A stretch of 64,000 nt of DNA from Chloroflexota bacterium (GTDB lineage Bacteria > Bacteroidota > Ignavibacteria > Kapaibacteriales > UBA2268), in NCBI GenBank assembly GCA_050260015.1, contig JBLNBN010000046.1, positions 4,699-68,698 on the forward strand. Direction: 5' to 3'. Shown piece by piece: positions 6,009 to 53,987 of this stretch (position 1 is its first letter; every line of letters starts with the position of its first letter). The notes below the pieces were generated by a model that saw nothing but the letters and a program-made list of their open reading frames with translations, was not told the origin of the DNA and made no database searches. A program made the translations under genes and the position numbers.

Positions 6009-7124
6009 ATGGATTATGACGTTGCAATTATTGGGGCGGGAGCGGTCGGGCTGGCCGTCGCCCGGGCGCTGAGCGGAGGCGGGCTGAGGGCCGTCGTCTT
6101 CGAGCGGCACGCCTCGTTTGGTTGGGAAACGAGCTCGCGCAATAGCGAGGTCGTTCACGCCGGGATTTATTACAAGCCGGGCTCGCTAAAGGCGAAGCTC
6201 TGCGTCGAGGGAAATGCGAAGCTTTACGAATGGTGCGAAAGCAGGCGCGTCCCCTACCGGAAAATTGGGAAGTACTTAATAGCTATAAAAGAAAACGAAG
6301 TGGAAACGCTTGAAGGCGTCTGCCGGAACGCGCAGGAAAATGGCGCGCGGGGCGTAGAAATGGTCTCAAACGATCGGCTGCGGCGCGAGGAGCCTTACGT
6401 CAAGGCTGCGGCGGGCGCGTTCTCCCCTTCCACGGGGATAATCGATTCGCATAAATATATGGAAAGCCTCGTAGAGGCGGCCAAGGATGCGGGGTGCGAC
6501 TTCGCTTTCGCGCACGAAGTAGTCGCTATCGGGAAAATTAGCGGCGGGTACCGCTTGCTCGCGCGGCATGAAAGCGGCGAGGAGTTCGGCGTGGACGCGA
6601 CTCGCATAGTCAACTCGGCCGGGCTCGACTCCGATCGAGTCGCCGCTATGGCAGGGCTAGACGCCCGCGAGACGGGCTACGAGCTTGCATACTGCCAGGG
6701 GCGTTATTTTAGGCTCAGCCCGGGCAAGAATTATTTAGCCCGGCATTTGATCTATCCCGTGCCGCAAAAGAATTACGCTGGCCTGGGCGTGCATGTAACG
6801 TTGGACCTTGCCGGGGGCGTTAAGTTCGGTCCCGACGCAGAGTATATCCCGCGGGAATTACGCTACGCAGTCGACGAGAAGCTGCGCGATAAGTTTTACG
6901 AGGCGGCTTCGTCCTACTTAATAGGCCTGGAGCGCGGGGATCTATCCCCCGACCAGGCGGGAATCAGGCCGAAATTGCAGCGGGCCGGCGAGCCGGAAAG
7001 AGATTTCGTTATCGCCGAAGAGTCGTCCCGCGGGCTGCCCGGATTTATAAATTTAATAGGCATCGAATCGCCGGGCCTGACAAGCTCGCTCGCTATTGGG
7101 GACCTGGCGATGAAGTTTATCTGA
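6009..7124 (+). CDS. lhgO: FAD-dependent oxidoreductase, L-2-hydroxyglutarate oxidase-like (DAO family)
   Basis: 371 aa. DVAIIGAGAVGLAVA dinucleotide-binding motif. LhgO-like family assignment is from memory of the family. Confidence 0.6.
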   Translation: MDYDVAIIGAGAVGLAVARALSGGGLRAVVFERHASFGWETSSRNSEVVHAGIYYKPGSLKAKLCVEGNAKLYEWCESRRVPYRKIGKYLIAIKENEVETLEGVCRNAQENGARGVEMVSNDRLRREEPYVKAAAGAFSPSTGIIDSHKYMESLVEAAKDAGCDFAFAHEVVAIGKISGGYRLLARHESGEEFGVDATRIVNSAGLDSDRVAAMAGLDARETGYELAYCQGRYFRLSPGKNYLARHLIYPVPQKNYAGLGVHVTLDLAGGVKFGPDAEYIPRELRYAVDEKLRDKFYEAASSYLIGLERGDLSPDQAGIRPKLQRAGEPERDFVIAEESSRGLPGFINLIGIESPGLTSSLAIGDLAMKFI

Positions 7125-42428: not shown

Positions 42429-43679
42429 CTATAAATACAAACCGGCTATAACGGCCGTCATCAGGTTAGCTAAAGCTCCTATTGTCATGGCCTTTAAGCC
42501 GAGCTGGGCTATTTCCGTCTTTTTATCGGGGACCATCGCGCCAAGCCCGCCAATTTGTATGGCGATCGAGGAAAAATTAGCGAAACCGCAGAGCGCGAAG
42601 GTTGCTATACGGGCGGTTCGTTCGCTTATCGCTCCGGATTGGATCATTTTTGCCAGGTCGGCGTAAGCGACGAATTCGTTAAGGGCTATTTTTTGACCGA
42701 CGAGCGCCCCGAACGTCCTTGCTTCGTTGGCCGGGATGTTCGCTATATAGGCGAAGGGCTGGAAGATATAGCCCAAAAGCTCGGCGAGGCTCGAGGGCAG
42801 CCATGGGAAGCCGATGGGGGTTAGCCAGGCGTCGAGCGAACGGAAACCGGCGTCGAGCAGGGCTATCAATGAAATAAAGGCTATGAGCATCGCGATAATA
42901 TTAAGAACGAGCTTAAGGCCGTCCGCGGCGCCGTCTGTAATGGCTACCAGCACGTTGTCCGCGCGGGGTAGGTCGATATGCTTTATCTCTTCCGTCGTCG
43001 TGTCGGTCGCAGTCGGCGGCACGGCTATCTTCGAGAGCATCAGCCCCGTCGGAGCCGCAATTACGCTCGCCGCTATCAACGTTTCCGCGGAAATGCCCAT
43101 GGAGATATATGCGGCCATCACGCCGCCTGCGATAGTGCAGAACCCGCCGACCATTACGGCGCAAACCTCCGAGCGCGAGGCGTACGGAAGGTACTTGCGT
43201 ATGAGAAGCGGGGCCTCCGTCTGCCCTAAAAATACGTTCGCCGAAGCGTTGAGCGACTCCACGCCGCTCGTGCCCATAGTCTTTTCCATTACCCATGCCA
43301 TCGCGTAGACTATGCGCTGCATTATGCCGTAATGATAAAGTATAGAAATGAACGAGGAGAAGAAGACGATAGTGACGAGCACGATGGCTGCGAACTGAAA
43401 GCCGAAGGTCCCGGAAAAGCCCGGGTTGAGAAGGTTGCCGAACAGGAAGTCGGCGCTTTTATATCCATAATTCAGAAAGGTCGTTACTTTATCGCCTATC
43501 CACTGGAATATGCCCACGCCTGCGGGCACGTAAAGTATAAATGTGGCGGCGGCAAATTGAAGGGCAAGCCCGAAGATGACGATGCGGAATGGGAATGCCC
43601 TGCGATTTTCCGAGATCAGCCAGCAGACGAATAAAATTAAAATGACGCCGAGCGCGCCGAGGAGCTTTGATGCGAACAT
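42429..43679 (-). CDS. nupC: Concentrative nucleoside transporter (NupC/CNT family)
   Basis: 416 aa polytopic membrane protein. Family call is by resemblance to NupC/CNT transporters, not by a named motif. Confidence 0.7.
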   Translation of the reverse strand: MFASKLLGALGVILILFVCWLISENRRAFPFRIVIFGLALQFAAATFILYVPAGVGIFQWIGDKVTTFLNYGYKSADFLFGNLLNPGFSGTFGFQFAAIVLVTIVFFSSFISILYHYGIMQRIVYAMAWVMEKTMGTSGVESLNASANVFLGQTEAPLLIRKYLPYASRSEVCAVMVGGFCTIAGGVMAAYISMGISAETLIAASVIAAPTGLMLSKIAVPPTATDTTTEEIKHIDLPRADNVLVAITDGAADGLKLVLNIIAMLIAFISLIALLDAGFRSLDAWLTPIGFPWLPSSLAELLGYIFQPFAYIANIPANEARTFGALVGQKIALNEFVAYADLAKMIQSGAISERTARIATFALCGFANFSSIAIQIGGLGAMVPDKKTEIAQLGLKAMTIGALANLMTAVIAGLYL

Positions 43680-43887
43680 ATATATTTTACTCTTTCATTG
43701 TTATTGCAGACGCGGTAATTTAACCAAAACGGAATTAATAAAAAAGGGAAGTTTTTTCATTGGCTTAGGGCGCTCGAAGCGCCGTTTGCCGGCGTTAATA
43801 AAATTATTAGCGGAAATTTATAAAAAAATTATATTTTGCGTAATAGCGGGAATTGAACTATCTAATATTAATATATGGGGAGATATT

Positions 43888-46800
43888 ATGCGGAAAGGTT
43901 TATACTTATTAGCGGCGTTATTTCTCATTCCTTCGATAGCTTTTTCCCAGGGCGTGACGACGGCGGCGATGAACGGCCTGGTAGCCGACGACGTCGGGAA
44001 GCCCCTGGCCGGCGCGACTGTGCAGGCGACTCATATCCCGACCGGGACGCGCTCGGGCGCGGTTACTAATTCCGCCGGAAGGTACAACATACGCGGGCTG
44101 CGGCCCGGGGGACCGTACTCGGTGGTCGTTACTATGGTTGGGTTTGCACGGCAGCAAAAGGATAATATAATGCTCTCGCTCGACGAAAACTTAAAGCTCG
44201 ACTTTACGCTAACGGAGAGCGGGGTGCAGCTGCAGGCCGTAACGGTGACCGCTACCCGCAGCGACGTGATCAACACCAACCGCACAGGTTCGGCGCAGCT
44301 TATCGCTCAATCGGAAATTGAGAGCCTGCCAACGATAGCGCGCTCCCTTCACGATTACTCCCGGCTTTCCCCGCAGATCATTTCATCGACTTCCGAGGGG
44401 TCGAACGTCTCCGGCAGGAACAGCAAATACAACAACATACAGGTGGACGGCGCCGTAATGAGCGACGCGTTCGGGCTGAACACCAGCGGAACTCCCGGCG
44501 GAGCGGCTAACGCCGAGCCTATTTCGCTCGACGCCATCCAGGAATTCCAGGTGGCGATCGCCCCGTTCGACGTGCGGCAGGGCGGCTTTACCGGGGGGCT
44601 CATAAACGCTATAACGCGCGGAGGCACGAATTTCTACCACGGCTCGGCCTACGTCTTCCGCCGCGACGAGAGCTTAATCGCTAAAAGCCCGGTGGAAAGC
44701 TGGGACGTACGCGACCGGAACGGCAACGGGATTATTGAAAAATCGGATTCTATAAAAAAGCGGGCGCCCTACCCCGACTTTGACGAAACTACCGTAGGCG
44801 GCTCGGTCGGAGGAAAAATTATAGCCGACAAGCTGTTCTTCTTCGCCAACGGCGAATACCGCGGACGCAGCGATCCGCAGGTCCTGGGAATTCAGGACCC
44901 GGCGGCCGCCAATAACTTCGACGTGCCGTTGGACTCAATACGGGCGATACAGGCGATAGCGCGAAATACGTATAATTACGACCCGGGCAGCATTGACCCC
45001 TATACGCGTACGAGCGGCGACGTAAAGCTTTTTATGAGATTGGACTATAATTTATCGAATCGTCATCGACTTACTCTTCGGCACAACTACGTCGACGCAC
45101 GGCAGGACAACTCCGTGACGCGCTCGCGGTTCTTCTTCTCCTTCGAAGGGCAGGAATACGTCTATCGCAGCAGGCAGAACCAGAGCGTGCTGCAGCTAAA
45201 CAGCGTCTTCGGCCATGAATTTGCAAATGAGTTCAGGGCGGCGGCGACCTTCATTCGCGATAAGCGCGACTATCAATCCAACCCCTTCCCCGCGGTAACT
45301 ATCCAAAACCTTGGCGACGACGCGCGCTATAGCATAGGGCTAGGCGTGGATAGATTCTCGCAGGCAAACGCGATCGACCAGGATATAATTGAAATTACCG
45401 ACAATTTTACCTGGTTCGCCGGCAATTTCCACGGGGACCACGTAGTAACGCTCGGCACGACTAACCAATTCGTAACGTTCGATAACTTGTTCGCCCAGGA
45501 TATATTCGGCAGCTACACGTTCGCAAGCGTCGAGGACTTCGCCGCCGGCAAGCCCTCCTCCTACTCCCTAAGCTACCTGCGCGATGGCGGCAAGCCGCGC
45601 GCCAAGTACGGCTACGCCCAGCTGGCCTTCTACGCGCAGGACGAGTGGGGCATCCTCGACAACTTTAGATTGACGTTTGGCGTCAGGGGCGACATTTTTA
45701 CCTTTAACGATACCCCGACGGAAAACCCGACGTTCGCTCAATTCTTCCCCGGTCTGCATACGAGCGAAATGCCCTCCCCGGCCTCGGTCTCGCCTCGAAT
45801 GGGCTTTAACTGGGACGTTCGCGGCGACAAAACGCTGCAGGCCCGCGGCGGAGTCGGCTACTTTGCCGGACGTACTCCCGGCGTTTGGATAGGCAATCAA
45901 TTCTCCAATACGGGCATGGATTACTATAGAATCAACCTTGGCTCGCGGGACAAATTGCCTCAGTTCAATCCTGACCCATACCGCCAGCCCACCCAGGAAA
46001 CCGATTCGACGCTGAAGCTCGTAAAGACGACGGAAGTCAACATAACCGACCCGGATTTCCAAATGCCCCAGTTGCTTCGCGCGGACGTTGCGGCGGACTA
46101 TCAATTGTCGCCTGGATTCTATGCTACGGTCGAATTCATTTACGGCAAGACGATCTACGACGTTTTAATAAAGAACGTCAACCTGCTGCCAATGACCGCT
46201 CCGGGCGGCGGGCGGCTCGTCAGCATCGACGGCAGGCCGATGTACAACGGTAAGAATACCGTCAGCTCGAACGACTTCACCGGCGTTTACGAGCTGACCA
46301 ATTCCCGGAAGGGCTACCAAAGCTCCGTCTCGATCCAGCTTCAAAAGCCTTTCAGGCAGGGTTTTCTTCCCGAGATGAGCCTGAACTTCGCTTACGTTTA
46401 CAGCCAGGCGAAGGACGTCAACAGCGCGACTTCGAGCCGCGCTGTGTCGAATTGGCAGTTCAACCACGTCGTTGACCCCAACGATCCCGAACTCTCGACT
46501 TCCCTCTTCGAAATACCTCATCGCATCATGGGCTCCATCGCTTATCAGTTTAAATACGGGGAAAATTGGTTCGGCGGGGACGCCTGGGCGACGACCCTGG
46601 GGCTTTACTACGAGGGCCGAAGCGGCTCGCCGTACTCCTTCCTCTATTACACGCGCTCCAATTACAAGTTCGCGAGCGCGCCCGTCCAGGACGCCAACGT
46701 GCGCGACGCGAACAACGACGACATCTGGGGCAACGACCTGGTTTACATACCAACCGGGCCGCAGGACGATAAAGTAATACTCGTGGCCCCGGACGAAGCC

Positions 46801-47217
46801 AATCCCGGCGCATGGACGTCCCAAGCGGGCTGGGCCGAGCTTGAAAGCTTCCTGAACAGCGTCGACGGGCTCGAGCGCGGCAGGATAATGAAGAGATTCT
46901 CGCTGCGGCAGCCCTGGCGCGACCAACTGGACTTCCGGCTCACCCAGGACATACCGACAGTAAAGGGGCAGAAATTCCAGGTAACGCTCGACGTGATGAA
47001 CGTTTTGAACTTGCTCGACAAGGACTGGGGCAAGCAGAAGTACGTTAGCAACTCCGCGTACTCGCTATTCGAGTTCCGCGGTTACGATCGCGACACGGGC
47101 CGGATGCGCATCGCCTACGTTCCAAACTCGCGCGGCAATACCGAGGACGATATATTCGAAACGAGCGACTTCTGGTCCCGCTGGCAGATGCAGCTCGGGC
47201 TGCGCTACACGTTTTAA
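43888..47217 (+). CDS. TonB-dependent outer-membrane receptor with N-terminal carboxypeptidase-regulatory-like domain
   Basis: Signal peptide MRKGLYLLAALFLIPSIAFSQ. True start at 43888 preceded by GGGGAG. The track ORF from 43576 is an artefactual extension over nupC. Plug plus about 1000-aa barrel, C-terminal RYTF. Confidence 0.8.
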   Translation: MRKGLYLLAALFLIPSIAFSQGVTTAAMNGLVADDVGKPLAGATVQATHIPTGTRSGAVTNSAGRYNIRGLRPGGPYSVVVTMVGFARQQKDNIMLSLDENLKLDFTLTESGVQLQAVTVTATRSDVINTNRTGSAQLIAQSEIESLPTIARSLHDYSRLSPQIISSTSEGSNVSGRNSKYNNIQVDGAVMSDAFGLNTSGTPGGAANAEPISLDAIQEFQVAIAPFDVRQGGFTGGLINAITRGGTNFYHGSAYVFRRDESLIAKSPVESWDVRDRNGNGIIEKSDSIKKRAPYPDFDETTVGGSVGGKIIADKLFFFANGEYRGRSDPQVLGIQDPAAANNFDVPLDSIRAIQAIARNTYNYDPGSIDPYTRTSGDVKLFMRLDYNLSNRHRLTLRHNYVDARQDNSVTRSRFFFSFEGQEYVYRSRQNQSVLQLNSVFGHEFANEFRAAATFIRDKRDYQSNPFPAVTIQNLGDDARYSIGLGVDRFSQANAIDQDIIEITDNFTWFAGNFHGDHVVTLGTTNQFVTFDNLFAQDIFGSYTFASVEDFAAGKPSSYSLSYLRDGGKPRAKYGYAQLAFYAQDEWGILDNFRLTFGVRGDIFTFNDTPTENPTFAQFFPGLHTSEMPSPASVSPRMGFNWDVRGDKTLQARGGVGYFAGRTPGVWIGNQFSNTGMDYYRINLGSRDKLPQFNPDPYRQPTQETDSTLKLVKTTEVNITDPDFQMPQLLRADVAADYQLSPGFYATVEFIYGKTIYDVLIKNVNLLPMTAPGGGRLVSIDGRPMYNGKNTVSSNDFTGVYELTNSRKGYQSSVSIQLQKPFRQGFLPEMSLNFAYVYSQAKDVNSATSSRAVSNWQFNHVVDPNDPELSTSLFEIPHRIMGSIAYQFKYGENWFGGDAWATTLGLYYEGRSGSPYSFLYYTRSNYKFASAPVQDANVRDANNDDIWGNDLVYIPTGPQDDKVILVAPDEANPGAWTSQAGWAELESFLNSVDGLERGRIMKRFSLRQPWRDQLDFRLTQDIPTVKGQKFQVTLDVMNVLNLLDKDWGKQKYVSNSAYSLFEFRGYDRDTGRMRIAYVPNSRGNTEDDIFETSDFWSRWQMQLGLRYTF

Positions 47218-48731: not shown

Positions 48732-49307
48732 ATGAAAATAGCGGTATTCGCCTCGCATGGCGGATCGAATATGCAAGCGATAATAGACGCTATAAAGGAA
48801 GGCAGGCTTCAGGCTGAGGTCTGCCTTGTCATATCCAACAACTCCTCCTCTATGGCCCTCGAGCGCGCCCGCAACGAAGGCATCCCCTGCGCGCACATGA
48901 GTTCGAAAACTCATGGCGAACTGCTCGACGAAGCTATACTTGACGCTCTTCGTGCCGCCGCCGCTGATTTAATCGTATTGGCCGGCTACATGAAAAAGCT
49001 TTCCCCCGCCATTGTTCGCGAATACGCCGGCAGGATACTTAACATTCACCCGGCGCTGCTGCCCAAGTTCGGCGGCGAGGGAATGTACGGCATGCGCGTG
49101 CACGAAGCCGTTATCGCCGCCGGCGAGACTAAGAGCGGCGCGACCGTCCACTTCGTCGACGAGGAATTCGATCGCGGCGAGATCCTCCTCCAGCGCGAAG
49201 TCCCCGTCTACCCTACCGACACGCCCGAAACGCTGGCCGCCCGCGTCCTCGAGGTAGAGCACCAAATATACCCCGAAGCCATAGGGCGGTTGATTAGTAA
49301 TGGTTAA
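48732..49307 (+). CDS. purN: Phosphoribosylglycinamide formyltransferase PurN
   Basis: 191 aa. SNMQAII and NIHPALLP formyltransferase motifs. Confidence 0.85.
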   Translation: MKIAVFASHGGSNMQAIIDAIKEGRLQAEVCLVISNNSSSMALERARNEGIPCAHMSSKTHGELLDEAILDALRAAAADLIVLAGYMKKLSPAIVREYAGRILNIHPALLPKFGGEGMYGMRVHEAVIAAGETKSGATVHFVDEEFDRGEILLQREVPVYPTDTPETLAARVLEVEHQIYPEAIGRLISNG

Positions 49308-49371
49308 TGGTTAATGGTAAATGGTTAATTAACGGTATAATTATTGATTGATCAGAGAGATATCAAATACC

Positions 49372-49835
49372 ATCACGACATCAAAATGTGATACCGCGTT
49401 AGCGGTTGAACATCTGTAATGAAACGCCCAAACGCGAGATGTACCCCGTAGGGGTTCAACAGAGGGTAACTTTTAGAGCATTAACGGCATGCAAATTGAT
49501 AAAACTAAATGATATAGAAAAATTGTGTTCCAAGAATATTCTGCATGTTCCTTATAAACAAATTTATATTTTTTACCGCGTAGCGGTTGAACATCTGTAA
49601 CATAACGCCCAAGATCGAAATGTACCCCGTAGGGGTTCAACGGAGGGTAACGATTGGACTTCTAACGGCATGCATATTGATAAAACCAAATGGTATAATC
49701 AAAATTATATTGTAGAATTATTCCGTACTTATCTTACACAAAAGTTTAAACGTTTTTTACCGCGTAGCGGTTGAACATCTGTAACATAACGCCCAAGATC
49801 GAAATGTACCCCGTAGGGGTTCAATAAAAGAGCTA
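49372..49835 (+). repeat. Array of about 2.5 tandem ~182-bp units, each carrying a doublet of REP-like hairpins (TA-CCGCGTAGCGG-TTGAAC ... GTA-CCCCGTAGGGG-TTCAAC)
   Basis: Units start at 49393, 49574 and 49758. The hairpins are short GC palindromes with a conserved TT(G/C)AAC tail. Confidence 0.8.
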
Positions 49836-49876
49836 TAAACAGAATCCACTAATATTTATAAAATTAGGATGGCTTT

Positions 49877-50335
49877 ATGGCAAACACATATTCGCAAATA
49901 TTCATACATGTGATTATTTGCGTTCAGGATCGCGATAGAAGGATAACCCCTGAGTTAAATCCGTAGATTTGTAAGTATATTACTGGAATAGTCAGCCACA
50001 GAGGGAGCAAAGTTATATCAATATATGCAATGCCCGATCATCTCCACATTTTAATAAGTTTAAATCCGGATGAAGCTCTCTCAGAGCTGGTAAAAGAGAT
50101 TAAACGAAGTTTTACGCTCTATATAAACGATAACAACCAACTTCCGAGAAGATTTCAATGGCAAGCCGGCTATGCCGCTTTTTCCTATTCCAGATCGATG
50201 ATAAAAATTGTTAGCAAATATATCGAAAACCAAGAAAAACACCATAAAGTAAAGACTTTTAGGGAAGAGTATATCGAATTCTTAGAGAAGTTTGGAGTTG
50301 AATACGACTTAAAATATATATTTACAGAAAGTTAA
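49877..50335 (+). pseudogene. REP-associated tyrosine transposase (RAYT, IS200/IS605 TnpA-like) interrupted by an in-frame TAG at codon 30
   Basis: MANTYSQIFIHV...(TAG)...ICKYITGIV...MPDHLHILIS (HuH) ... QWQAGYAAFSYS (catalytic Tyr region). One frame, 152 codons. Low GC relative to the surroundings. Confidence 0.75.
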
Positions 50336-50735
50336 GATGTTCAACGCCTACGGCGTAGCATATCTCCGCTTGGTTCGATGTTACAGATGTATAACGCCTA
50401 CGGCGTAGTCAACAGTGGATATTTACCATCATCACGACATCAAAATCTAAAGTATTTAATATCGCTTCGCGGTTGAATAGCTGTGATATTGCGAAATAAA
50501 TATGAATTATATTCTGAAGGAATTCCGTGAAGATGTCCAACGCCTACGGCGTAGCATCTCACTGATTATTTCGTTGTTACAGATGTATAACGCCTACGGC
50601 GTAAAGATTGGAGCGACTCGAATGCAGTTCCGCCGAGCAAGCTTTTGAAACACCTAACGTACCGCGTTAGCGGTTCTACATCTGTAACAGTGGGCAGAAA
50701 CGGGCAAAGTACCCCGTAGGGGTTCAACTGATACG
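50336..50735. repeat. Cluster of REP-like hairpins mostly in inverted orientation (GTTCAA-CGCCTACGGCG-TA variants), then forward copies, downstream of the RAYT gene
   Basis: These are reverse complements of the left-hand REPs. Together they give a classic RAYT-flanking inverted REP arrangement. Confidence 0.75.
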
Positions 50736-50883
50736 GCATACTGCAAAACGACTCGGAAAAGTTCCACATGCTTTTACCGATTTCCAAAGTCCTTTGCCAC
50801 AGATTAATCCTTAACAATTAACCTTCCCTTTCTCCCCGTTTTTTCTTAATTTCGTTAATTACAAAAGAATTCAGGAACAAATT

Positions 50884-52119
50884 ATGAAACGTATTTACTC
50901 TTTCCTATTTGCCGCGATATTGCTTGCGCTTGCGGCCTGCAACGACGATAACGGCCCGGCTAACCCGGATTCCAACTCCGCCAAAATTACCTGGACCGAA
51001 AAAACTACGGAATTTATGGCCGACGAAGTAGATTCCTTTACCGAAGACTATAAGATGATCACGTTCAAGGAGACTTCCTCGAAAGCCAAAACGCTCAAGG
51101 CGGGAGATATAGTCTTCCTCTATGGAAAAGCTCTTAAAAAGGTAAAATCCGTTAGCCAGAACGGCGGGAGAACTGTCGTTACGACCGAATACTGCCGGCT
51201 GAACGAAGCGATCCGCGACGGCGAGATAAGCTGGAACCAGCCGCTGCGCTTTTCGAAAGAAATGGCCGGGGACGTTCAGATGATCCCCGCGCTGCCCGGC
51301 TCGAAAATCCTCGACGGCAACGAAGTGGAATTCACCTTCCCCGTCGGCAACGGCATGGAGGGCAAGATCAAGGTGGGACTGAACGGCGATAGGCTCGACG
51401 CTGACTGCGAAGTCACGAAAAAATCAGGCGCGTTCAACGTTAAGTACGCCTTCGAAGGCTACGCGCAGAACATGAAGACGCAGGGCAAGATAAAGTACGA
51501 GGGCGGGGAGCTGAAGGAATTCGGCTATACTAACAAGAACATCGAGGGCGAAGTAACCGTTTCGCTCACGGCGACGGGCTCCACCAAGGATTTGCTAAAC
51601 GGGATCGAATTGCCGTTCGCGTTGGTTAAGGTTCCCGTGGTTATTGGCGGCGTGCCCTGCACATTCAACTTAAAAGTACTTTTCGTGATCAACACGGAAA
51701 TGGCGTCGCTCGACGCGTCCGCTCACATCAAGACGAAATTCAAGTTTAACTCCGAAACCGGCGTCAAGTACGACGGCACGGACGTGGGCGTCGTCGGCGC
51801 GGCGGGCCCGTACAACATGGATTTCCTGAAGGACTCCTGCTGGGTGGGCAGCTCGACGGCCGCAGGAATTAACTTCGGCATTACCTTCCCCCGCTTCGAA
51901 TTAGCCCTGTTCGGCGAGGTGGTCGTCCCCTACGTACAGACGGCGTTCCTGATAGGCGGCGCGTTTACGGCCGGCACGAAGCCCTGCCTGAAGATCGACG
52001 CCTCGTATATCGGCGCCATCGGCTACGATTTCGACTTCCTGGGACTACTAAAATTCAGCGGCAAGAAGAACCTCTGGCAGTACGACAAAAATATAAAGAA
52101 GATCGGCGACTGCGACTAA
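50884..52119 (+). CDS. Hypothetical lipoprotein (411 aa), REP-flanked
   Basis: Lipobox LLALAAC. No recognisable catalytic motif. No T9SS tail. Confidence 0.55.
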   Translation: MKRIYSFLFAAILLALAACNDDNGPANPDSNSAKITWTEKTTEFMADEVDSFTEDYKMITFKETSSKAKTLKAGDIVFLYGKALKKVKSVSQNGGRTVVTTEYCRLNEAIRDGEISWNQPLRFSKEMAGDVQMIPALPGSKILDGNEVEFTFPVGNGMEGKIKVGLNGDRLDADCEVTKKSGAFNVKYAFEGYAQNMKTQGKIKYEGGELKEFGYTNKNIEGEVTVSLTATGSTKDLLNGIELPFALVKVPVVIGGVPCTFNLKVLFVINTEMASLDASAHIKTKFKFNSETGVKYDGTDVGVVGAAGPYNMDFLKDSCWVGSSTAAGINFGITFPRFELALFGEVVVPYVQTAFLIGGAFTAGTKPCLKIDASYIGAIGYDFDFLGLLKFSGKKNLWQYDKNIKKIGDCD

Positions 52120-52160
52120 GTAATGGTAAGGGATATGCCCCGCAGTGGGCGAAATAACAA

Positions 52161-52531
52161 ATGTCCAACGCCTATGGCGTAGAAAGCGGAGAGATATCAA
52201 CCGCATCGCTACATAAACTCGAATGAAGTTTTACCGCGAGGCGGTTGAACATCTGTAACAAGACGCTAAAACGCGGAAAGTACTCCGTAGGAGTTCAACA
52301 AAAATGAAGCCCAACGCTTACGGCATAGAAAGCGGAGAGATATCAACCACATCGCTACATAAACTCGAATGAATTTTTACCGCGTAGCGGTTGAACATCT
52401 GTAACAAGACGCTAAAACGCGGAAAGTACTCCGTAGGAGTTCAACAAAAATGAAGCCCAACGCCTACGGCGTAGTAAGCGGAGAGATATCAACCGCATCG
52501 CGACATAAACTCGAATGAAGTTTTACCGCTA
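52161..52531. repeat. Tandem array (about 2.5 copies, period 146 bp) of composite BIME-like units with three REP hairpins per unit
   Basis: Unit starts at about 52165, 52311 and 52457. Copies are nearly identical. Confidence 0.8.
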
Positions 52532-52565
52532 CATACGGCTATGCTCAATTTAATCAGTTTCAGCT

Positions 52566-53987
52566 TTATTGTTTGATAAAACGCTCGTAATGCTTGAACG
52601 CTCCGTCGCTAAACTCTAAATAATACGCTCCTGCGGCATAGGCGCTAACGTCCAATTTTATTTCGCCATCCTTATTCGTTTTTACGTTGTCAATCAATTT
52701 TCCGTCGTTTGACAATATTCGTATGTTAAATATTCTTTCTAACTCTGAATCGAATAAAATGTTTACCGTTTCTTCAACGGGGTTGGGGTATATTTTTACG
52801 CTGAAGCGGTTCGCTTCGGAACTAATATCGAAAACGCCTATATCGCTCTGCGTTATGGTCCACTCAACGTAGAAAATGTGTTCCACCGGGTGTGAATCGG
52901 AGCGTACCCAAGACGTGGTATCGTTAAGCTTAGCGATTAATTGATTTTGGCCTTTCTTTAAGGATCCGGCGGAAACGCTAACTGAATCAGAATGGGTTGT
53001 TAGAATATTGTCGTTTAAAGACCATTCCATTTTCAGCGTATTTGGTTGCGGCTTTAATAAGTCAATGGAAAAGCTGAGTGAATCTTTTAATTCCAATTCC
53101 GGTTCTAAAGGATAGTAATTCATGATTGGATTGACCAGGGAATGTATCCTTTCAACGATAGTTTCGCGGCAAACTGCGCAGAATTCGCGATTAAGGTTTT
53201 CCATTTCGCATACTCCCTCGGTAGGCTTGTACCAGTCATATCCAGGAAACTTATAAATACCAATGCCGGAGCCGAAGGGCAGCCAGTTTTTCCATTTGAT
53301 CGTAAGCGGGTTGTTGTTTTGAGTCATATTCGGCTTTTCATAGGCGTACTGCAATCCTGCCCAGTATTCGTCGGCAAGGTAGGCAAAAGTGTGCCCAATT
53401 TCATGCACGGCTATTTCGTTGCTTGCCAAGCTTAACGTTGCTGTCGCAACCCCGCCGCCGGAGCCGCCGTAGTGTTTGGAGTTGGCTAATAGGAAGACTA
53501 AATCGTAATTTGGAAAATTATCCGCTAACACGCCGGAAAGGGCCGAATAGTTGGTAGGACAAACAAGTCTATGTATGCCGGCGCAATCAAAAGTCGATCC
53601 ATAAAAATTTTCAGGATTTGAAAAAGGGTGCGTGGTATCTTGGGGATTGCAATCCTCGGCAGTTAAAGGATGCTTTACTCCGCTCTCAATTGAAGGCGTA
53701 TATATGCAGTAAACGTTAAAATAATTTTTATAGGATGAGAAGGGCGCCTTTTTGAAAAAGTAGTCTACGAAACTTTCCGCGTGGCTTTTGAAATCAATTA
53801 GTTCGGCTTCAGTATAACCATCGCCAAGAATAACTATGTTGATGAATTTTCCAGGATCTCCGTGGAAAACTAAAGTGTCCACATCAAATACTTCAGGTTT
53901 GGCGGGAATTGGCGAAAAGAACGTCATCGCAATTACCGCGATAGCAAAATAGATTATAATTGCCTTCATATGTATTCCCTTGTTCAT
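52566..53987 (-). CDS. M64-family (IgA-peptidase-like) zinc metalloprotease with T9SS C-terminal sorting domain; low-GC gene
   Basis: HEIGHTFAYLADEY zinc motif typical of the M64 family. C-terminal Por tail (KIYPNPVEETVNILF...). GC content is clearly below that of neighbouring core genes. Alternative start at 53969 (MKAIIIYF...). Confidence 0.7.
   Translation of the reverse strand: MNKGIHMKAIIIYFAIAVIAMTFFSPIPAKPEVFDVDTLVFHGDPGKFINIVILGDGYTEAELIDFKSHAESFVDYFFKKAPFSSYKNYFNVYCIYTPSIESGVKHPLTAEDCNPQDTTHPFSNPENFYGSTFDCAGIHRLVCPTNYSALSGVLADNFPNYDLVFLLANSKHYGGSGGGVATATLSLASNEIAVHEIGHTFAYLADEYWAGLQYAYEKPNMTQNNNPLTIKWKNWLPFGSGIGIYKFPGYDWYKPTEGVCEMENLNREFCAVCRETIVERIHSLVNPIMNYYPLEPELELKDSLSFSIDLLKPQPNTLKMEWSLNDNILTTHSDSVSVSAGSLKKGQNQLIAKLNDTTSWVRSDSHPVEHIFYVEWTITQSDIGVFDISSEANRFSVKIYPNPVEETVNILFDSELERIFNIRILSNDGKLIDNVKTNKDGEIKLDVSAYAAGAYYLEFSDGAFKHYERFIKQ

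What the first reader, a model, noticed from the sequence alone, without database searches (positions are those of the whole stretch)
49372..50735. REP/RAYT locus: IS200-like REP-associated tyrosine transposase with an internal amber codon, flanked by inverted arrays of REP hairpins
A 152-codon RAYT-type TnpA reading frame (MANTYSQIFIHV ... MPDHLHILIS ... QWQAGYAAFSYS) sits between REP-like hairpins (TA-CCGCGTAGCGG-TTGAAC, GTA-CCCCGTAGGGG-TTCAAC, TA-CGCCGTAGGCG-TTGAAC). The REPs are in forward orientation on the left and mostly reverse orientation on the right, which is the classic REP/RAYT arrangement. A single in-frame TAG at codon 30 (...TPELNP*ICKYITGIV...) is the only disruption. The gene may be recently inactivated, a sequencing error, or dependent on readthrough. 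The gene is markedly AT-rich compared with the host. REP/RAYT systems are described mainly in Proteobacteria. A GC-rich T9SS-bearing (FCB-type) genome with multiple REP families is less expected and may be a new REP/RAYT group.
Basis: partly seen in the sequence, partly recalled or inferred. Interest (0 to 1): 0.7.

Follow-up and report, generated by a model that had tools for sequence, protein, structure and literature searches.

The report
Broken IS200-like gene with hairpin arrays
A transposase-like gene knocked out by one stop codon sits between mirror-image arrays of tiny DNA hairpins; this gene-plus-hairpin layout is shared by its whole, little-studied gene family across many bacterial phyla, but the hairpins stay next to the gene rather than spreading through the genome like classical REP repeats.

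Summary
Window 49877-50335 (+) is a 152-codon HUH/Y1 (Pfam Y1_Tnp, 1.9e-23) reading frame. It has one in-frame TAG at codon 30 (49964-49966), where relatives have a conserved Glu (GAG to TAG). About 20 five-bp GTA-triloop hairpins flank it: forward on the left, mostly reverse on the right, plus a second cluster at 52165-52529.

The protein is not a canonical RAYT. It fails NCBIfam REP_Tyr_transpos (37 vs 80 bits) and has Y---Q--HH rather than Y---NP. It fits the non-IS "subclass 1.2" of the IS200 superfamily (Quentin et al. 2018), which that paper reported as having no REPs.

In 75 relatives from many phyla I found one shared cassette: two hairpins plus a GTAG-like box on each side, in mirror orientation. 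Hairpin density falls from 4.6 per kb next to the gene to chance level by 5-10 kb. Eight Chryseobacterium species carry the gene at one syntenic site.

This is therefore a REPtron-like, probably domesticated unit with locally proliferating hairpin modules, here carrying an inactivated gene. Genome-wide dispersal was not shown: there are no copies in the other 61 kb, and three collection scans found nothing. Interest is moderate.

The parts
49877..50335 (+). HUH/Y1 transposase-like gene of 152 codons (TnpAY1 subclass 1.2 type). HUH is at codons 55-57 and Y115-x3-Q119-x2-HH follows. It is interrupted by one stop codon.
   Evidence: Translation. Pfam Y1_Tnp 1.9e-23. NCBIfam IS200 62.6 bits, above the cutoff of 55. 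Alignment A1 with 23 relatives.
49964..49966 (+). In-frame TAG at codon 30. It aligns with a Glu in most relatives, so the simplest change is GAG to TAG.
   Evidence: The 64%-identical relative in L001 has GAG at this position. TAG ends 7 of 32 long ORFs in the window, so there is no sign of TAG reassignment.
49392..49460 (+). Left module L1. The outer hairpin ACCGC-GTTA-GCGGT is followed by the tail TGAACATCTGTAA. The inner hairpin is ACCCC-GTA-GGGGT.
   Evidence: (family D1).
49574..49641 (+). Left module L2. The outer hairpin ACCGC-GTA-GCGGT is followed by the tail TTGAACATCTGTAAC. The inner hairpin is ACCCC-GTA-GGGGT.
49758..49825 (+). Left module L3, the gene-proximal one. It is the left end of the canonical cassette and is 100% identical to L2 over 72 nt.
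49392..49824 (+). Left tandem array with a period of 181 bp and 2.4 copies. Each unit is one two-hairpin module plus about 110 nt of AT-rich spacer.
   Evidence: TRF score 574, 84% matches. (family D2).
50339..50407 (-). Right module R1, the right end of the canonical cassette. The inner hairpin ACGCC-GTA-GGCGT lies 9 nt after the stop codon. The outer hairpin carries the tail TTATACATCTGTAAC. The module is a mirror image of L3.
   Evidence: (I3, I4, I7, I8).
50461..50489 (+). Degenerate forward outer-type hairpin ATCGC-TTC-GCGGT with the tail TGAATAGCTGTGATAT. It is preceded by a copy of the 29-nt segment that precedes L1.
   Evidence: families D3 and D5.
50535..50603 (-). Right module R2, a second reverse two-hairpin module. 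It is 88% identical to R1 and lies 196 bp from it.
   Evidence: family D4..
50660..50728 (+). Right module R3, a forward two-hairpin module of the left-flank type.
   Evidence: family D1, 67%..
50575..50690 (.). REPIN-like inverted doublet. The tail of R2's outer hairpin pairs with the tail of R3's outer hairpin (TGTTACAGATGTA / TACATCTGTAACA).
   Evidence: I6: 27 nt, 81% complementary. The ssDNA fold is -26.2 kcal/mol with z = -3.9. The same arrangement occurs in L001 at 1616-1686 (I5).
52165..52529 (.). Second hairpin cluster, in the convergent intergenic region after the 411-aa lipoprotein gene. It has a period of 146 bp and 2.5 copies. Each unit has one reverse hairpin (ACGCC type) plus a forward two-hairpin module (ACCGC and ACTCC).
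   Evidence: Its structure differs between strains.

Best explanation
**What it is.** This is a nonsense-mutated copy of a non-IS, RAYT-like member of the IS200 superfamily. The protein belongs to TnpAY1 subclass 1.2 of Quentin et al. [quoted passage not shown] 2017. It sits in the cassette typical of its family. On each side there is an outer 5-bp hairpin with a GTA triloop, a tail of about 9 nt ending in a GTAG/GTAA box, and about 50 nt further in an inner hairpin. The two sides are mirror images.

**What has happened here.** In this genome the roughly 70-nt two-hairpin modules have multiplied. Three lie in tandem on the left, three on the right, and about 2.5 units lie in the next intergenic region 1.8 kb downstream.

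**Proposed mechanism (inferred from how IS608/ISDra2 TnpA and E. coli TnpA-REP work).** The Y1 dimer binds these hairpins when the DNA is single-stranded. It recognises the loop and the stem shape, then cuts and rejoins near the box. This duplicates, deletes or relocates modules over short distances. Because the two ends of the gene present their recognisable hairpins on opposite strands, the gene itself is not excised and stays put.

**State of this copy.** The enzyme is truncated at codon 30, before the HUH motif. The arrays here are therefore relics, or are serviced in trans. The alternative is that the TAG is an assembly error.

**Shown versus inferred.**
- Shown: the protein's identity, the stop codon, the hairpin anatomy and covariation, the family-wide cassette, the local rather than dispersed distribution, the synteny, and the strain-level module polymorphism.
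- Inferred: binding and cleavage, and that the enzyme causes the amplification.
For: **Protein.**
- Pfam Y1_Tnp 83 bits.
- The NCBIfam IS200 model passes and the RAYT model fails in all 24 aligned members.
- The motifs PDHLH, WQ and YIENQEKHH and the conserved C-terminal 30 residues match the subclass 1.2 description.
- The best match among solved structures is ISDra2 TnpA at 3.9e-11.

**Stop codon.** Relatives have Glu at codon 30. All invariant family residues are retained, so the inactivation is recent. TAG is an ordinary stop in this window.

**Cassette conserved across the family.**
- The 64%-identical gene P0002 sits in another genomic context. It has the same module order with different hairpin sequences.
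- In 72 loci with both flanks, upstream hairpins are 62 GTA-oriented against 8 TAC-oriented. Downstream they are 56 TAC against 11 GTA. They peak at about -75 and -25, and at +7 and +60. Outer hairpins carry a ...TTTGTAGAA tail.
- 135 of 177 CGTAG pentamers within 200 nt of the gene have complementary 4-nt flanks, with 22 different stems. Beyond 200 nt the figure is 74 of 1058.

**Local, not dispersed.**
- Density is 4.56, 0.67, 0.10, 0.02 and 0.006 hairpins per kb at 0-0.2, 0.2-0.7, 0.7-2, 2-5 and 5-10 kb.
- The other 61 kb of the window holds no copy.
- A 600-kb Bernardetia replicon that carries a relative has only 2 places matching its hairpin-plus-box.

**Immobile gene.**
- Eight Chryseobacterium species are syntenic across the whole 20-kb locus.
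- Identical proteins P0002, P0033 and P0104 each occur in a single context in 8 to 24 contigs.
- Only 2 of 72,556 plasmid records and no phage records carry a relative.

**Modules are dynamic.**
- Logan contigs of the same organism, 99.7-99.9% identical, carry a different module after the hairpin at 52168.
- There is a 128-nt module indel upstream of P0033 between samples.
- 23 of 75 loci have extra hairpins 200-700 nt from the gene.
Against: - No biochemical evidence links this subclass to any DNA substrate.
- Quentin et al. list subclass 1.2 as 'REP: no'. However, their search required stems of 7-20 bp with GTAG at the 5' foot, so these 5-bp hairpins would have been missed.
- Individual hairpins are weak, at -2.7 to -4.5 kcal/mol.
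- Tandem arrays and indels bounded by direct repeats can arise by replication slippage or homologous recombination, without any enzyme.
- The gene here is broken, yet strains differ in module arrangement. That does not require an active local enzyme.
- Loop sequence is not universal: the Bernardetia hairpins have AGC and AGA loops.
- The gene is 17 GC points below its surroundings, against a family mean of 7. This suggests fairly recent horizontal arrival, so the gene is not strictly immobile on evolutionary time scales.
- The rest of the source genome could not be searched.
Confidence: 0.65

Rival explanations
1. This is a canonical REP/RAYT system: a class-2 REP-associated tyrosine transposase whose flanking REPs belong to a high-copy family dispersed through the whole genome.
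For: - The flanking hairpins are in mirror orientation.
- A second cluster lies in another intergenic region, between convergent genes.
- There is a REPIN-like inverted doublet at 50575-50690.
- A GTAG-like box is present.
- IMG names relatives 'REP element-mobilizing transposase RayT', but that is the generic COG name.
Against: - The RAYT HMM is far below its cutoff, at 37 against 80 bits.
- The Tyr motif is Y---Q--HH, not Y---NP.
- Stems are 5 bp. The box is about 9 nt 3' of the hairpin, not at its 5' foot (one search compared).
- There are no copies in the other 61 kb of the window.
- Across the family the hairpin density reaches chance by 5-10 kb.
- Three exact-pattern scans of public collections found nothing.
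Confidence: 0.08
2. This is an ordinary IS200/IS605-family insertion sequence that has been inactivated by a nonsense mutation. The hairpins would be its subterminal left-end and right-end structures.
For: - The NCBIfam IS200 equivalog passes its cutoff, and PGAP names relatives 'IS200/IS605 family transposase'.
- The closest solved structures are ISDra2 and IS608 TnpA.
- The gene is AT-rich relative to its host, which suggests horizontal arrival.
- It sits in a different genomic context from its 64% relative.
Against: - IS200/IS605 ends carry their hairpins on the same strand. Here and across the family the two ends are mirror images.
- The gene is syntenic across eight Chryseobacterium species.
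- Identical proteins each occur in a single context.
- Relatives are almost absent from plasmids and absent from phages.
- The literature reports low copy number and no IS features for this subclass.
- The window holds a single copy and no tnpB.
Confidence: 0.07
3. The hairpins are not substrates of the Y1 protein. They would be RNA-level or regulatory elements, such as 5'-UTR or 3'-UTR stem-loops that control or stabilise the transcript, or binding sites for another factor. The arrays would have arisen by slippage or recombination.
For: - The inner hairpins lie at about -25 and +7, where a 5'-UTR or 3'-end stem-loop would sit.
- In IS200, a 5'-UTR hairpin regulates tnpA translation (PMC4513863, abstract seen).
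- The P0033 indel is bounded by an 18-nt direct repeat, as slippage would give.
Against: - A mirror-symmetric pair of two-hairpin modules with the same tail box on opposite strands is hard to explain for a single transcript.
- The hairpins have no T-run, and the terminator scan found none at them.
- No Rfam family matches.
- Extra modules occur in both orientations and in a neighbouring intergenic region.
- All characterised Y1 HUH enzymes recognise DNA hairpins (PMC6006769, PMC3479197).
Confidence: 0.15
4. The TAG is a sequencing or assembly error in a metagenome-assembled genome, and the gene is intact and active in the organism. This question is separate from what the element is.
For: - It is a single-base difference from the consensus codon (GAG) in an otherwise perfect frame that keeps every invariant family residue.
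- The source is a metagenome assembly in a repeat-rich stretch, where independent short-read assemblies break.
- The module arrangement is polymorphic between strains, as if the system were active.
Against: - The deposited record also has the stop. NCBI calls a 118-aa product that starts after it.
- The 5.8 billion protein clusters searched contain no intact version more than 64% identical.
- Substitution errors are rare in consensus assemblies with good coverage.
Confidence: 0.2

Closest known systems
[quoted passage not shown] 2017 (PMC5581495)
   Same: - About 150 aa.
- The DH[ILV]H, WQ and Y---Q--HH motifs.
- A conserved C-terminal tail of about 30 aa.
- Low copy number, not IS-like, chromosomal.
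- Common in Bacteroidota.
- Bertels et al. noted abundant flanking 16-mers without gene duplication.
   Different: - Quentin et al. score this subclass as having no REP and generally no terminal secondary structures.
- Here, and in most of 75 relatives, the gene lies between mirror-image pairs of 5-bp triloop hairpins with a GTAG-like box.
- The taxonomic range is wider: Verrucomicrobiota, Ignavibacteria, Planctomycetota-labelled MAGs and others.
- That Bertels' Group 3 is the same group is my inference. I did not test it.
REPtron / RAYT (TnpA-REP of E. coli and class-2 relatives; Nunvar 2010, Bertels and Rainey 2011, Ton-Hoang 2012)
   Same: - A single-copy Y1 HUH gene flanked by hairpin repeats in inverted orientation.
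- Clusters and inverted doublets (REPIN-like) next to the gene.
- A GTAG-type tetranucleotide associated with the hairpin.
- Vertical inheritance.
   Different: - The protein belongs to class 1 (Y---Q), not class 2 (Y---NP), and fails the RAYT HMM.
- Stems are 5 bp, against 7-20 bp.
- The box lies about 9 nt 3' of the hairpin rather than at its 5' foot.
- The repeats are concentrated within a few kb of the gene rather than dispersed in hundreds of copies.
IS200/IS605 insertion sequences (IS608, ISDra2)
   Same: - The closest sequence relatives with solved structures.
- The HUH plus Y-x3-Q chemistry.
- Small hairpins, with a cleavage-site-like tetranucleotide about 10 nt from a hairpin foot, as at the IS608 right end.
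- Each two-hairpin module has both hairpins on one strand, like a miniature left end plus right end.
   Different: - The ends of the gene cassette are on opposite strands.
- There is no tnpB.
- There are no multiple identical copies.
- The gene is syntenic across species.
- Relatives are virtually absent from plasmids and phages.
TIRYT / TIRtrons (Di Nocera et al. 2013, PMC3733652; subclass 2.1 of Quentin et al.)
   Same: A tyrosine-transposase gene bracketed by terminal inverted repeats rather than by a dispersed REP family. Small TIR-derived repeat families occur in some genomes.
   Different: TIRYTs are longer class-2 proteins (about 238 aa) with a C-terminal HTH-like domain. Their TIRs are not built from paired GTA-triloop hairpins.

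Membership tests
HUH/Y1 transposase superfamily (Pfam PF01797) | Significant match to Y1_Tnp, with an HUH motif and a catalytic Tyr | tested here: met
   83.3 bits against a cutoff of 23. H55-L-H57, Y115 and Q119 are conserved in alignment A1.
TnpAY1 subclass 1.2 (Quentin et al. 2018) | Tyr motif Y---Q--HH, HuH motif DH[IV]H and W motif WQ | tested here: met
   YIENQEKHH and QWQ are present. The HuH motif is DHLH, and relatives have DH[LVI]H.
TnpAY1 subclass 1.2 (Quentin et al. 2018) | Length of about 148 aa with a subclass-specific conserved C-terminal domain of about 30 aa | tested here: met
   152 aa. Residues 122-149 are conserved across A1: H122, H123, F128, E131, L136 and F149 are invariant.
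TnpAY1 subclass 1.2 (Quentin et al. 2018) | Low copy number per genome with no IS-like identical copies | tested here: inconclusive
   The 64-kb window holds one copy. Relatives each occur in a single context. The rest of the source genome was not available.
RAYT / TnpA-REP (class 2) | Protein matches the RAYT model and has the Tyr motif Y---NP | tested here: not met
   NF047646 scores 37.1 bits against a cutoff of 80. All 24 aligned relatives score better on the IS200 model. The motif is Y---Q--HH.
REPtron (RAYT gene plus REPs) | Gene flanked by hairpin repeats in inverted orientation | tested here: met
   On the left, 6 hairpins are forward. The first 4 on the right are reverse. Across the family the counts are 62:8 upstream and 56:11 downstream.
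REP (repetitive extragenic palindrome) family | High copy number, dispersed in intergenic regions throughout the genome | tested here: inconclusive
   - The window has two clusters, both within 2.6 kb of the gene, and no copy in the other 61 kb.
- Scans of genome and metagenome collections found nothing.
- In relatives the density is at chance level by 5-10 kb.
- A 600-kb Bernardetia replicon has only 2 places.
- A high-copy family is unlikely. A low-copy dispersed one is not excluded.
REP (canonical, as defined for detection in PMC6006769) | GT[AG]G tetranucleotide 0-2 nt 5' of a fully paired stem of 7-20 bp | tested here: not met
   Stems are 5 bp with a mismatch beyond. The GTAA/GTAG box lies about 9 nt 3' of the outer hairpin. 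The only GTAG in a hairpin is loop plus closing base.
IS200/IS605 insertion sequence | TnpA matches the IS200 model | tested here: met
   NF033573 scores 62.6 bits against a cutoff of 55.
IS200/IS605 insertion sequence | Left-end and right-end subterminal hairpins on the same strand, which define an excisable unit | tested here: not met
   The ends are mirror images, with a GTA loop on the top strand at the left and on the bottom strand at the right.
IS200/IS605 insertion sequence | Multiple near-identical copies, and presence on plasmids or phages | tested here: not met
   This was tested for the family, not for this genome. Relatives are syntenic across 8 species. Only 2 of 72,556 plasmid records and no phage records carry one.

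The most novel reading that the evidence does not exclude
The subclass 1.2 Y1 proteins, so far an orphan group described as lacking cognate repeats, may define a distinct and ancient REPtron type found across many phyla.

Their substrates would be 5-bp GTA-triloop hairpins with a GTAG box. The roughly 70-nt two-hairpin module, with both hairpins on one strand like a left end fused to a right end, would be a minimal non-autonomous IS200-like element. The enzyme would move or copy it only over short distances.

That would explain the local arrays, the spill-over into neighbouring intergenic regions, and the module polymorphism between strains.
Probability: 0.3. Interest if true: 0.55.

Novelty: new variant of a known kind. 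Interest (0 to 1): 0.4.

Why it matters
The locus itself is a modest thing: a recently broken transposase-like gene with local repeats. The value lies in what it exposes about its family.

- A large group of IS200-related genes has no known function. There were at least 3,600 database hits, and 561 of the first 600 candidate stretches in species-representative genomes encode a relative.
- The only systematic survey reported this group as having no associated repeats.
- In fact the genes sit in a conserved cassette of mirror-image hairpin pairs whose stems covary.
- This names the probable DNA substrate, so a direct biochemical test of what these domesticated HUH enzymes do becomes possible.
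- It also offers an intermediate between mobile IS200 elements and the REP/RAYT systems of Proteobacteria.

For annotation, 'IS200/IS605 family transposase' and 'RayT' are both misleading names for this group.

Tried and rejected
1. **Exact-pattern scans for the window's hairpin-plus-tail.** TACNNCGTAGNNGTTNNACATCTGTAAC was run on genome contigs and metagenome contigs, and CGTAGNNGTTGAACATNTGTAAC on metagenome contigs. All three found 0 matches. The source species is therefore not in those collections, and its genome-wide copy number could not be measured.
2. **Look-ups for other assemblies of the gene, to check the TAG.**
   - P0001, the PurN protein and the 101-aa downstream ORF are not on record.
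   - Only the neighbouring 411-aa gene was found, on short contigs that break at the repeats.
3. **Rfam gathering scan of the whole window.** It found only two tRNAs and nothing on the arrays.
4. **Promoter and terminator scan of 49250-52620.** Counts were no higher than in shuffles, and no hit coincides with one of the GTA-triloop hairpins; one terminator-like stem overlaps only the 5' edge of module L1.
5. **TAG reassignment or programmed readthrough.** Rejected. TAG ends 7 of 32 long ORFs, and no relative has a stop at this position.
6. **The TAG lying in CCGTAG, the hairpin apex sequence, as a sign of conversion from a hairpin.** Rejected as unsupported. CCGTAG occurs 25 times on the + strand of the window.
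7. **A large fold for the 72-nt module.** Not better than shuffles, with z between -0.7 and -0.9. Only the small hairpins and the inverted doublets fold significantly.
8. **A second Y1 gene or gene relic in the window.** None was found.
Full report
**1. What is in the sequence**

The reading frame runs 49877-50335 on the + strand: 152 codons plus TAA. The finding's coordinates, 49372-50735, cover the gene plus its first repeat cluster. The single interruption is TAG at codon 30, at 49964-49966.

The hairpins are real and far beyond chance. TACCSCGTAGSGGTTSAAC with up to 2 mismatches gives 11 matches against 0.00 expected. TACGCCGTAGGCGTT gives 14 against 0.19.

Each hairpin is a 5-bp stem around a GTA triloop, of the form A-C-N-N-C GTA G-N-N-G-T. 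Four stem versions occur (CCGC, CCCC, CGCC, CTCC), and each is perfectly complementary. In an alignment of eight window modules and three modules from a related locus:
- 99.1% of cells are paired;
- 14 cells carry changes on both sides;
- none of 500 shuffles reaches the observed covariation;
- sliding the partner by 1-3 columns drops pairing to 26-46%.

As single-stranded DNA the individual hairpins are weak, at -2.7 to -4.5 kcal/mol.

**2. Anatomy of the locus**

The repeated unit is a module of about 68-72 nt with two hairpins on the same strand:
- an outer hairpin followed by the tail TT(G/A)(A/T)ACATCTGTAAC;
- about 20 nt of spacer;
- an inner hairpin followed by TTCAAC (family D1).

The canonical cassette is module L3 (49758-49825, forward), the gene, and module R1 (50339-50407, reverse, with its inner hairpin 9 nt after the stop). 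These two ends are mirror images (I3-I8).

Everything else is extra:

| Element | Coordinates | Note |
|---|---|---|
| L1 and L2 | part of 49392-49824 | 181-bp tandem array, 2.4 copies |
| R2 | 50535-50603 | second reverse module |
| Degenerate forward hairpin | 50461-50489 | |
| R3 | 50660-50728 | forward module |
| Second cluster | 52165-52529 | period 146 bp, 2.5 copies |

R2 and R3 form a REPIN-like inverted doublet through their tails, with fold z = -3.9. The second cluster lies in the convergent intergenic region after the next gene.

No other copy occurs in the 64-kb window. The one other GC-rich GTA hairpin, at 6467, lies inside a gene, has no tail similarity, and is what chance predicts.

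The whole region is AT-rich. The gene is 34.9% GC, 49340-50780 is 38.6%, and the window is 51.5%.

**3. The protein**

- Pfam Y1_Tnp: 1.9e-23.
- NCBIfam: the IS200/IS605 equivalog passes at 62.6 bits against a cutoff of 55. The REP-associated tyrosine transposase model fails at 37.1 against 80. The same ranking holds for all 24 aligned family members.
- Among solved structures, the best hits are ISDra2 TnpA (3.9e-11) and IS608 TnpA. No solved structure named as a REP-associated (RAYT) transposase appeared among the hits up to E = 1.
- A database search returned 3,614 relatives of about 154 aa. Against 23 of them, H55, H57, W95, Q96, Y115, Q119, H122, H123 and a C-terminal block are invariant.

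This motif set (DH[LIV]H, WQ, Y---Q--HH), the length of about 150 aa and the specific C-terminal domain define 'subclass 1.2' of the TnpAY1 classification of Quentin et al. 2018. That paper describes the subclass as follows:
- closely related to IS200 transposases but without IS properties;
- low copy number;
- mostly in Bacteroidetes and Cyanobacteria;
- 'REP: no';

Class-2 RAYTs have Y---NP instead.

Bertels et al. 2017 describe a 'RAYT-like IS200 Group 3' with no duplicates, none on plasmids, and abundant flanking 16-mers. This is probably the same group, but that is my inference.

**4. The stop codon**

Most relatives have Glu at codon 30, and the 64% relative has GAG there. The simplest event is therefore GAG to TAG.

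The stop lies before the HUH motif, so the product would be a 29-residue peptide. NCBI's record calls a 118-aa fragment from an ATT start after the stop.

TAG terminates 7 of 32 long ORFs in the window, so nothing suggests reassignment. Every invariant residue is retained and there are no frameshifts. Either the inactivation is recent or the base is an assembly error.

I could not check reads, and I found no other assembly of this gene.

**5. The cassette is a family property**

The nearest intact relative is P0002, 64% identical. It is found in eight samples, always in one context that differs from the window's. It has the same order: a forward two-hairpin module, the gene, two reverse hairpins, then a forward module. 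Its hairpin sequences differ (AACCGC-ATA-GCGGTT..CAACGTCAGTAG).

I then fetched 80 loci from species-representative genomes. They span Bacteroidota, Ignavibacteria, Verrucomicrobiota, Calditrichota and MAGs labelled as Planctomycetota and Acidobacteriota.

In most of them the sequence just after the stop codon carries two short hairpins about 50 nt apart. For the 72 loci with both flanks:
- Perfect 5-bp GTA/TAC hairpins within 200 nt are 62 GTA to 8 TAC upstream, and 56 TAC to 11 GTA downstream.
- They peak at about -75 and -25, and at +7 and +60.
- Outer hairpins are followed by a conserved tail ending in a GTAG/ATAG box, for example AGCTCC-GTA-GGAGCG-ACCTGTTTGTAGAA.

A test that does not presuppose pairing gives the same answer. 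Of all CGTAG pentamers within 200 nt of the gene, 135 of 177 have complementary 4-nt flanks, where chance is 1 in 256. They use 22 different stems. Further away the figure is 74 of 1058.

Quentin et al. searched only for stems of 7-20 bp with GT[AG]G at the 5' foot. That explains why they missed these hairpins.

**6. Dispersed REPs or local ends?**

Hairpin density in the 75 loci falls with distance from the gene:

| Distance from gene | Hairpins per kb |
|---|---|
| 0-200 nt | 4.56 |
| 200-700 nt | 0.67 |
| 0.7-2 kb | 0.10 |
| 2-5 kb | 0.02 |
| 5-10 kb | 0.006 |

My estimate of the chance level is about 0.008 per kb.

- About a third of loci (23 of 75) have extra copies at 200-700 nt.
- A handful have clusters at 0.7-7 kb of the locus's own stem type: L021, L042, L058, L079, L085, L087, L025, L061 and L093.
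- A 600-kb Bernardetia replicon carrying a 47% relative has only two places matching its hairpin-plus-box.

These are therefore not high-copy dispersed REPs. They are gene-flanking modules that proliferate locally and sometimes spill into nearby intergenic regions, which is exactly the pattern in the window.

For the source genome itself the bound is weak. No copy in 61 kb gives, by my rough calculation, fewer than about 200 copies per 4 Mb. Exact-pattern scans of the two large collections found nothing.

**7. Is the gene mobile?**

- Eight Chryseobacterium species, and three Flavobacterium species, are collinear over the whole 20 kb around the gene.
- Identical proteins P0002, P0033 and P0104 occur in one context each, across 8 to 24 or more contigs from many samples.
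- Only 2 of 72,556 plasmid records carry a relative. Both are non-mobilizable replicons of about 600 kb, and the Bernardetia one carries housekeeping genes such as radA and dapF. No phage record carries one.

This is the signature of a resident, vertically inherited gene, not an IS.

The gene is on average 7 GC points below its flanks in 67 of 68 loci. In the window it is 17 points below, and in P0002's locus 19. These two copies may therefore be comparatively recent horizontal arrivals.

**8. The modules are dynamic**

Independent assemblies of the same organism are 99.7-99.9% identical over 50576-52182. They agree with the window up to the hairpin at 52168. In four samples they then continue with a spacer of the R1 type, like 50339-50395, instead of the window's sequence. 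The breakpoint is exactly at the 5' edge of the hairpin unit.

In the P0033 locus, samples with an identical protein differ by a 128-nt module indel bounded by an 18-nt direct repeat.

**9. Mechanism**

Shown:
- an HUH/Y1 catalytic set;
- conserved, covarying hairpins with a nearly constant loop and a constant box;
- mirror symmetry;
- local amplification;
- strain-level rearrangement.

Inferred from IS608/ISDra2 TnpA and E. coli TnpA-REP (PMC6006769, PMC3479197):
- The dimeric enzyme binds the hairpins in single-stranded DNA. It reads the loop and the stem shape, and cuts and rejoins near the box.
- The recognisable form of the left end is on one strand and that of the right end on the other. 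The gene therefore cannot be excised in the IS200 manner.
- Each two-hairpin module has both hairpins on one strand, so it could behave as a miniature left-end plus right-end element.

In this copy the enzyme is truncated, so the arrays are relics unless the TAG is an error.

Alternatives are slippage or recombination without an enzyme, or an RNA-level role. Mirror symmetry, both orientations of extra modules, the absence of T-runs and the absence of Rfam matches argue against a purely RNA role. They do not exclude it.

**10. Verdict**

- It is a Y1 gene with an amber codon in a REPtron-like setting within an FCB-type genome (Por_Secre_tail neighbour).
- The protein is not a canonical RAYT.
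- The protein group is not new.
- The repeats are not shown to be a genome-wide REP family.
- What does appear to be undescribed is the conserved two-hairpin, mirror-image cassette of this whole subclass. In the papers I could search, the only survey that addresses this subclass reports no associated repeats.

I rate it a new variant of a known kind, of moderate interest.

Noticed in passing
window 52160-52240, compared with L010, L013, L015 and L016 (last ~60 nt): Strains of the same organism are 99.7% identical across the neighbouring gene but differ in what follows the hairpin at 52168. Four samples have a spacer like 50339-50395 instead of the window's sequence. The breakpoint lies at the 5' edge of the hairpin unit.
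   Followed up: partly
window 49956-49969: The TAG codon lies in CCGTAG, the same hexamer as the hairpin apex, inside a small palindrome AAATC-CGTA-GATTT. CCGTAG occurs 25 times on the + strand of the window, so this is probably coincidence.
   Followed up: partly
window 52566-53987 (-) and 43576-47217 (+): The NCBI protein identical to this gene's C-terminal part is labelled 'Chloroflexota bacterium'. The neighbours, however, are an M64 peptidase with a T9SS sorting tail (Por_Secre_tail) and a CarboxypepD_reg outer-membrane barrel. These point to an FCB-group host, so the taxonomic label looks doubtful.
   Followed up: partly
window 50884-52119 (+): A 411-aa predicted lipoprotein with no Pfam match (a faint DUF8402 hit on record) is bracketed on both sides by the hairpin clusters. 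Short-read assemblies from eight samples break at the repeats on each side of it.
   Followed up: no
L097 2811-3001, compared with L098 2683-3001: Upstream of an identical family protein (P0033), samples differ by a 128-nt insertion or deletion of a hairpin module, bounded by the 18-nt direct repeat TTTTACAAACAGTATGCT. The gene's neighbours there are GatD- and GatE-like genes, which are typical of archaea, so the family may extend beyond Bacteria.
   Followed up: partly
68 related loci (L001, L017-L096), gene compared with flanks: The family's gene is lower in GC than its surroundings in 67 of 68 loci, by 7 points on average. This holds even where it is syntenic across species. The window (-17) and L001 (-19) are the extremes.
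   Followed up: partly
L117 19780-20000 (Bernardetia sp. NZ_CP147018.1): In this relative the flanking hairpins have AGC and AGA loops (GTTGC-AGC-GCAAC) rather than GTA. They keep the same ATATTTGTAGAA tail box, so the box is more conserved than the loop.
   Followed up: partly
window 49298-49329: A 7-nt tandem repeat (TAATGGT, 4.6 copies) spans the stop codon of the formyltransferase (PurN-like) gene, just before the left hairpin array.
   Followed up: no
L091 9630-9880 and 10550-10700; L087; L062: Some relatives carry long arrays of single hairpin-plus-box units with a period of about 50 nt: 6 forward upstream and 4 reverse downstream in L091. The amplifying unit can therefore be one hairpin rather than the two-hairpin module.
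   Followed up: no
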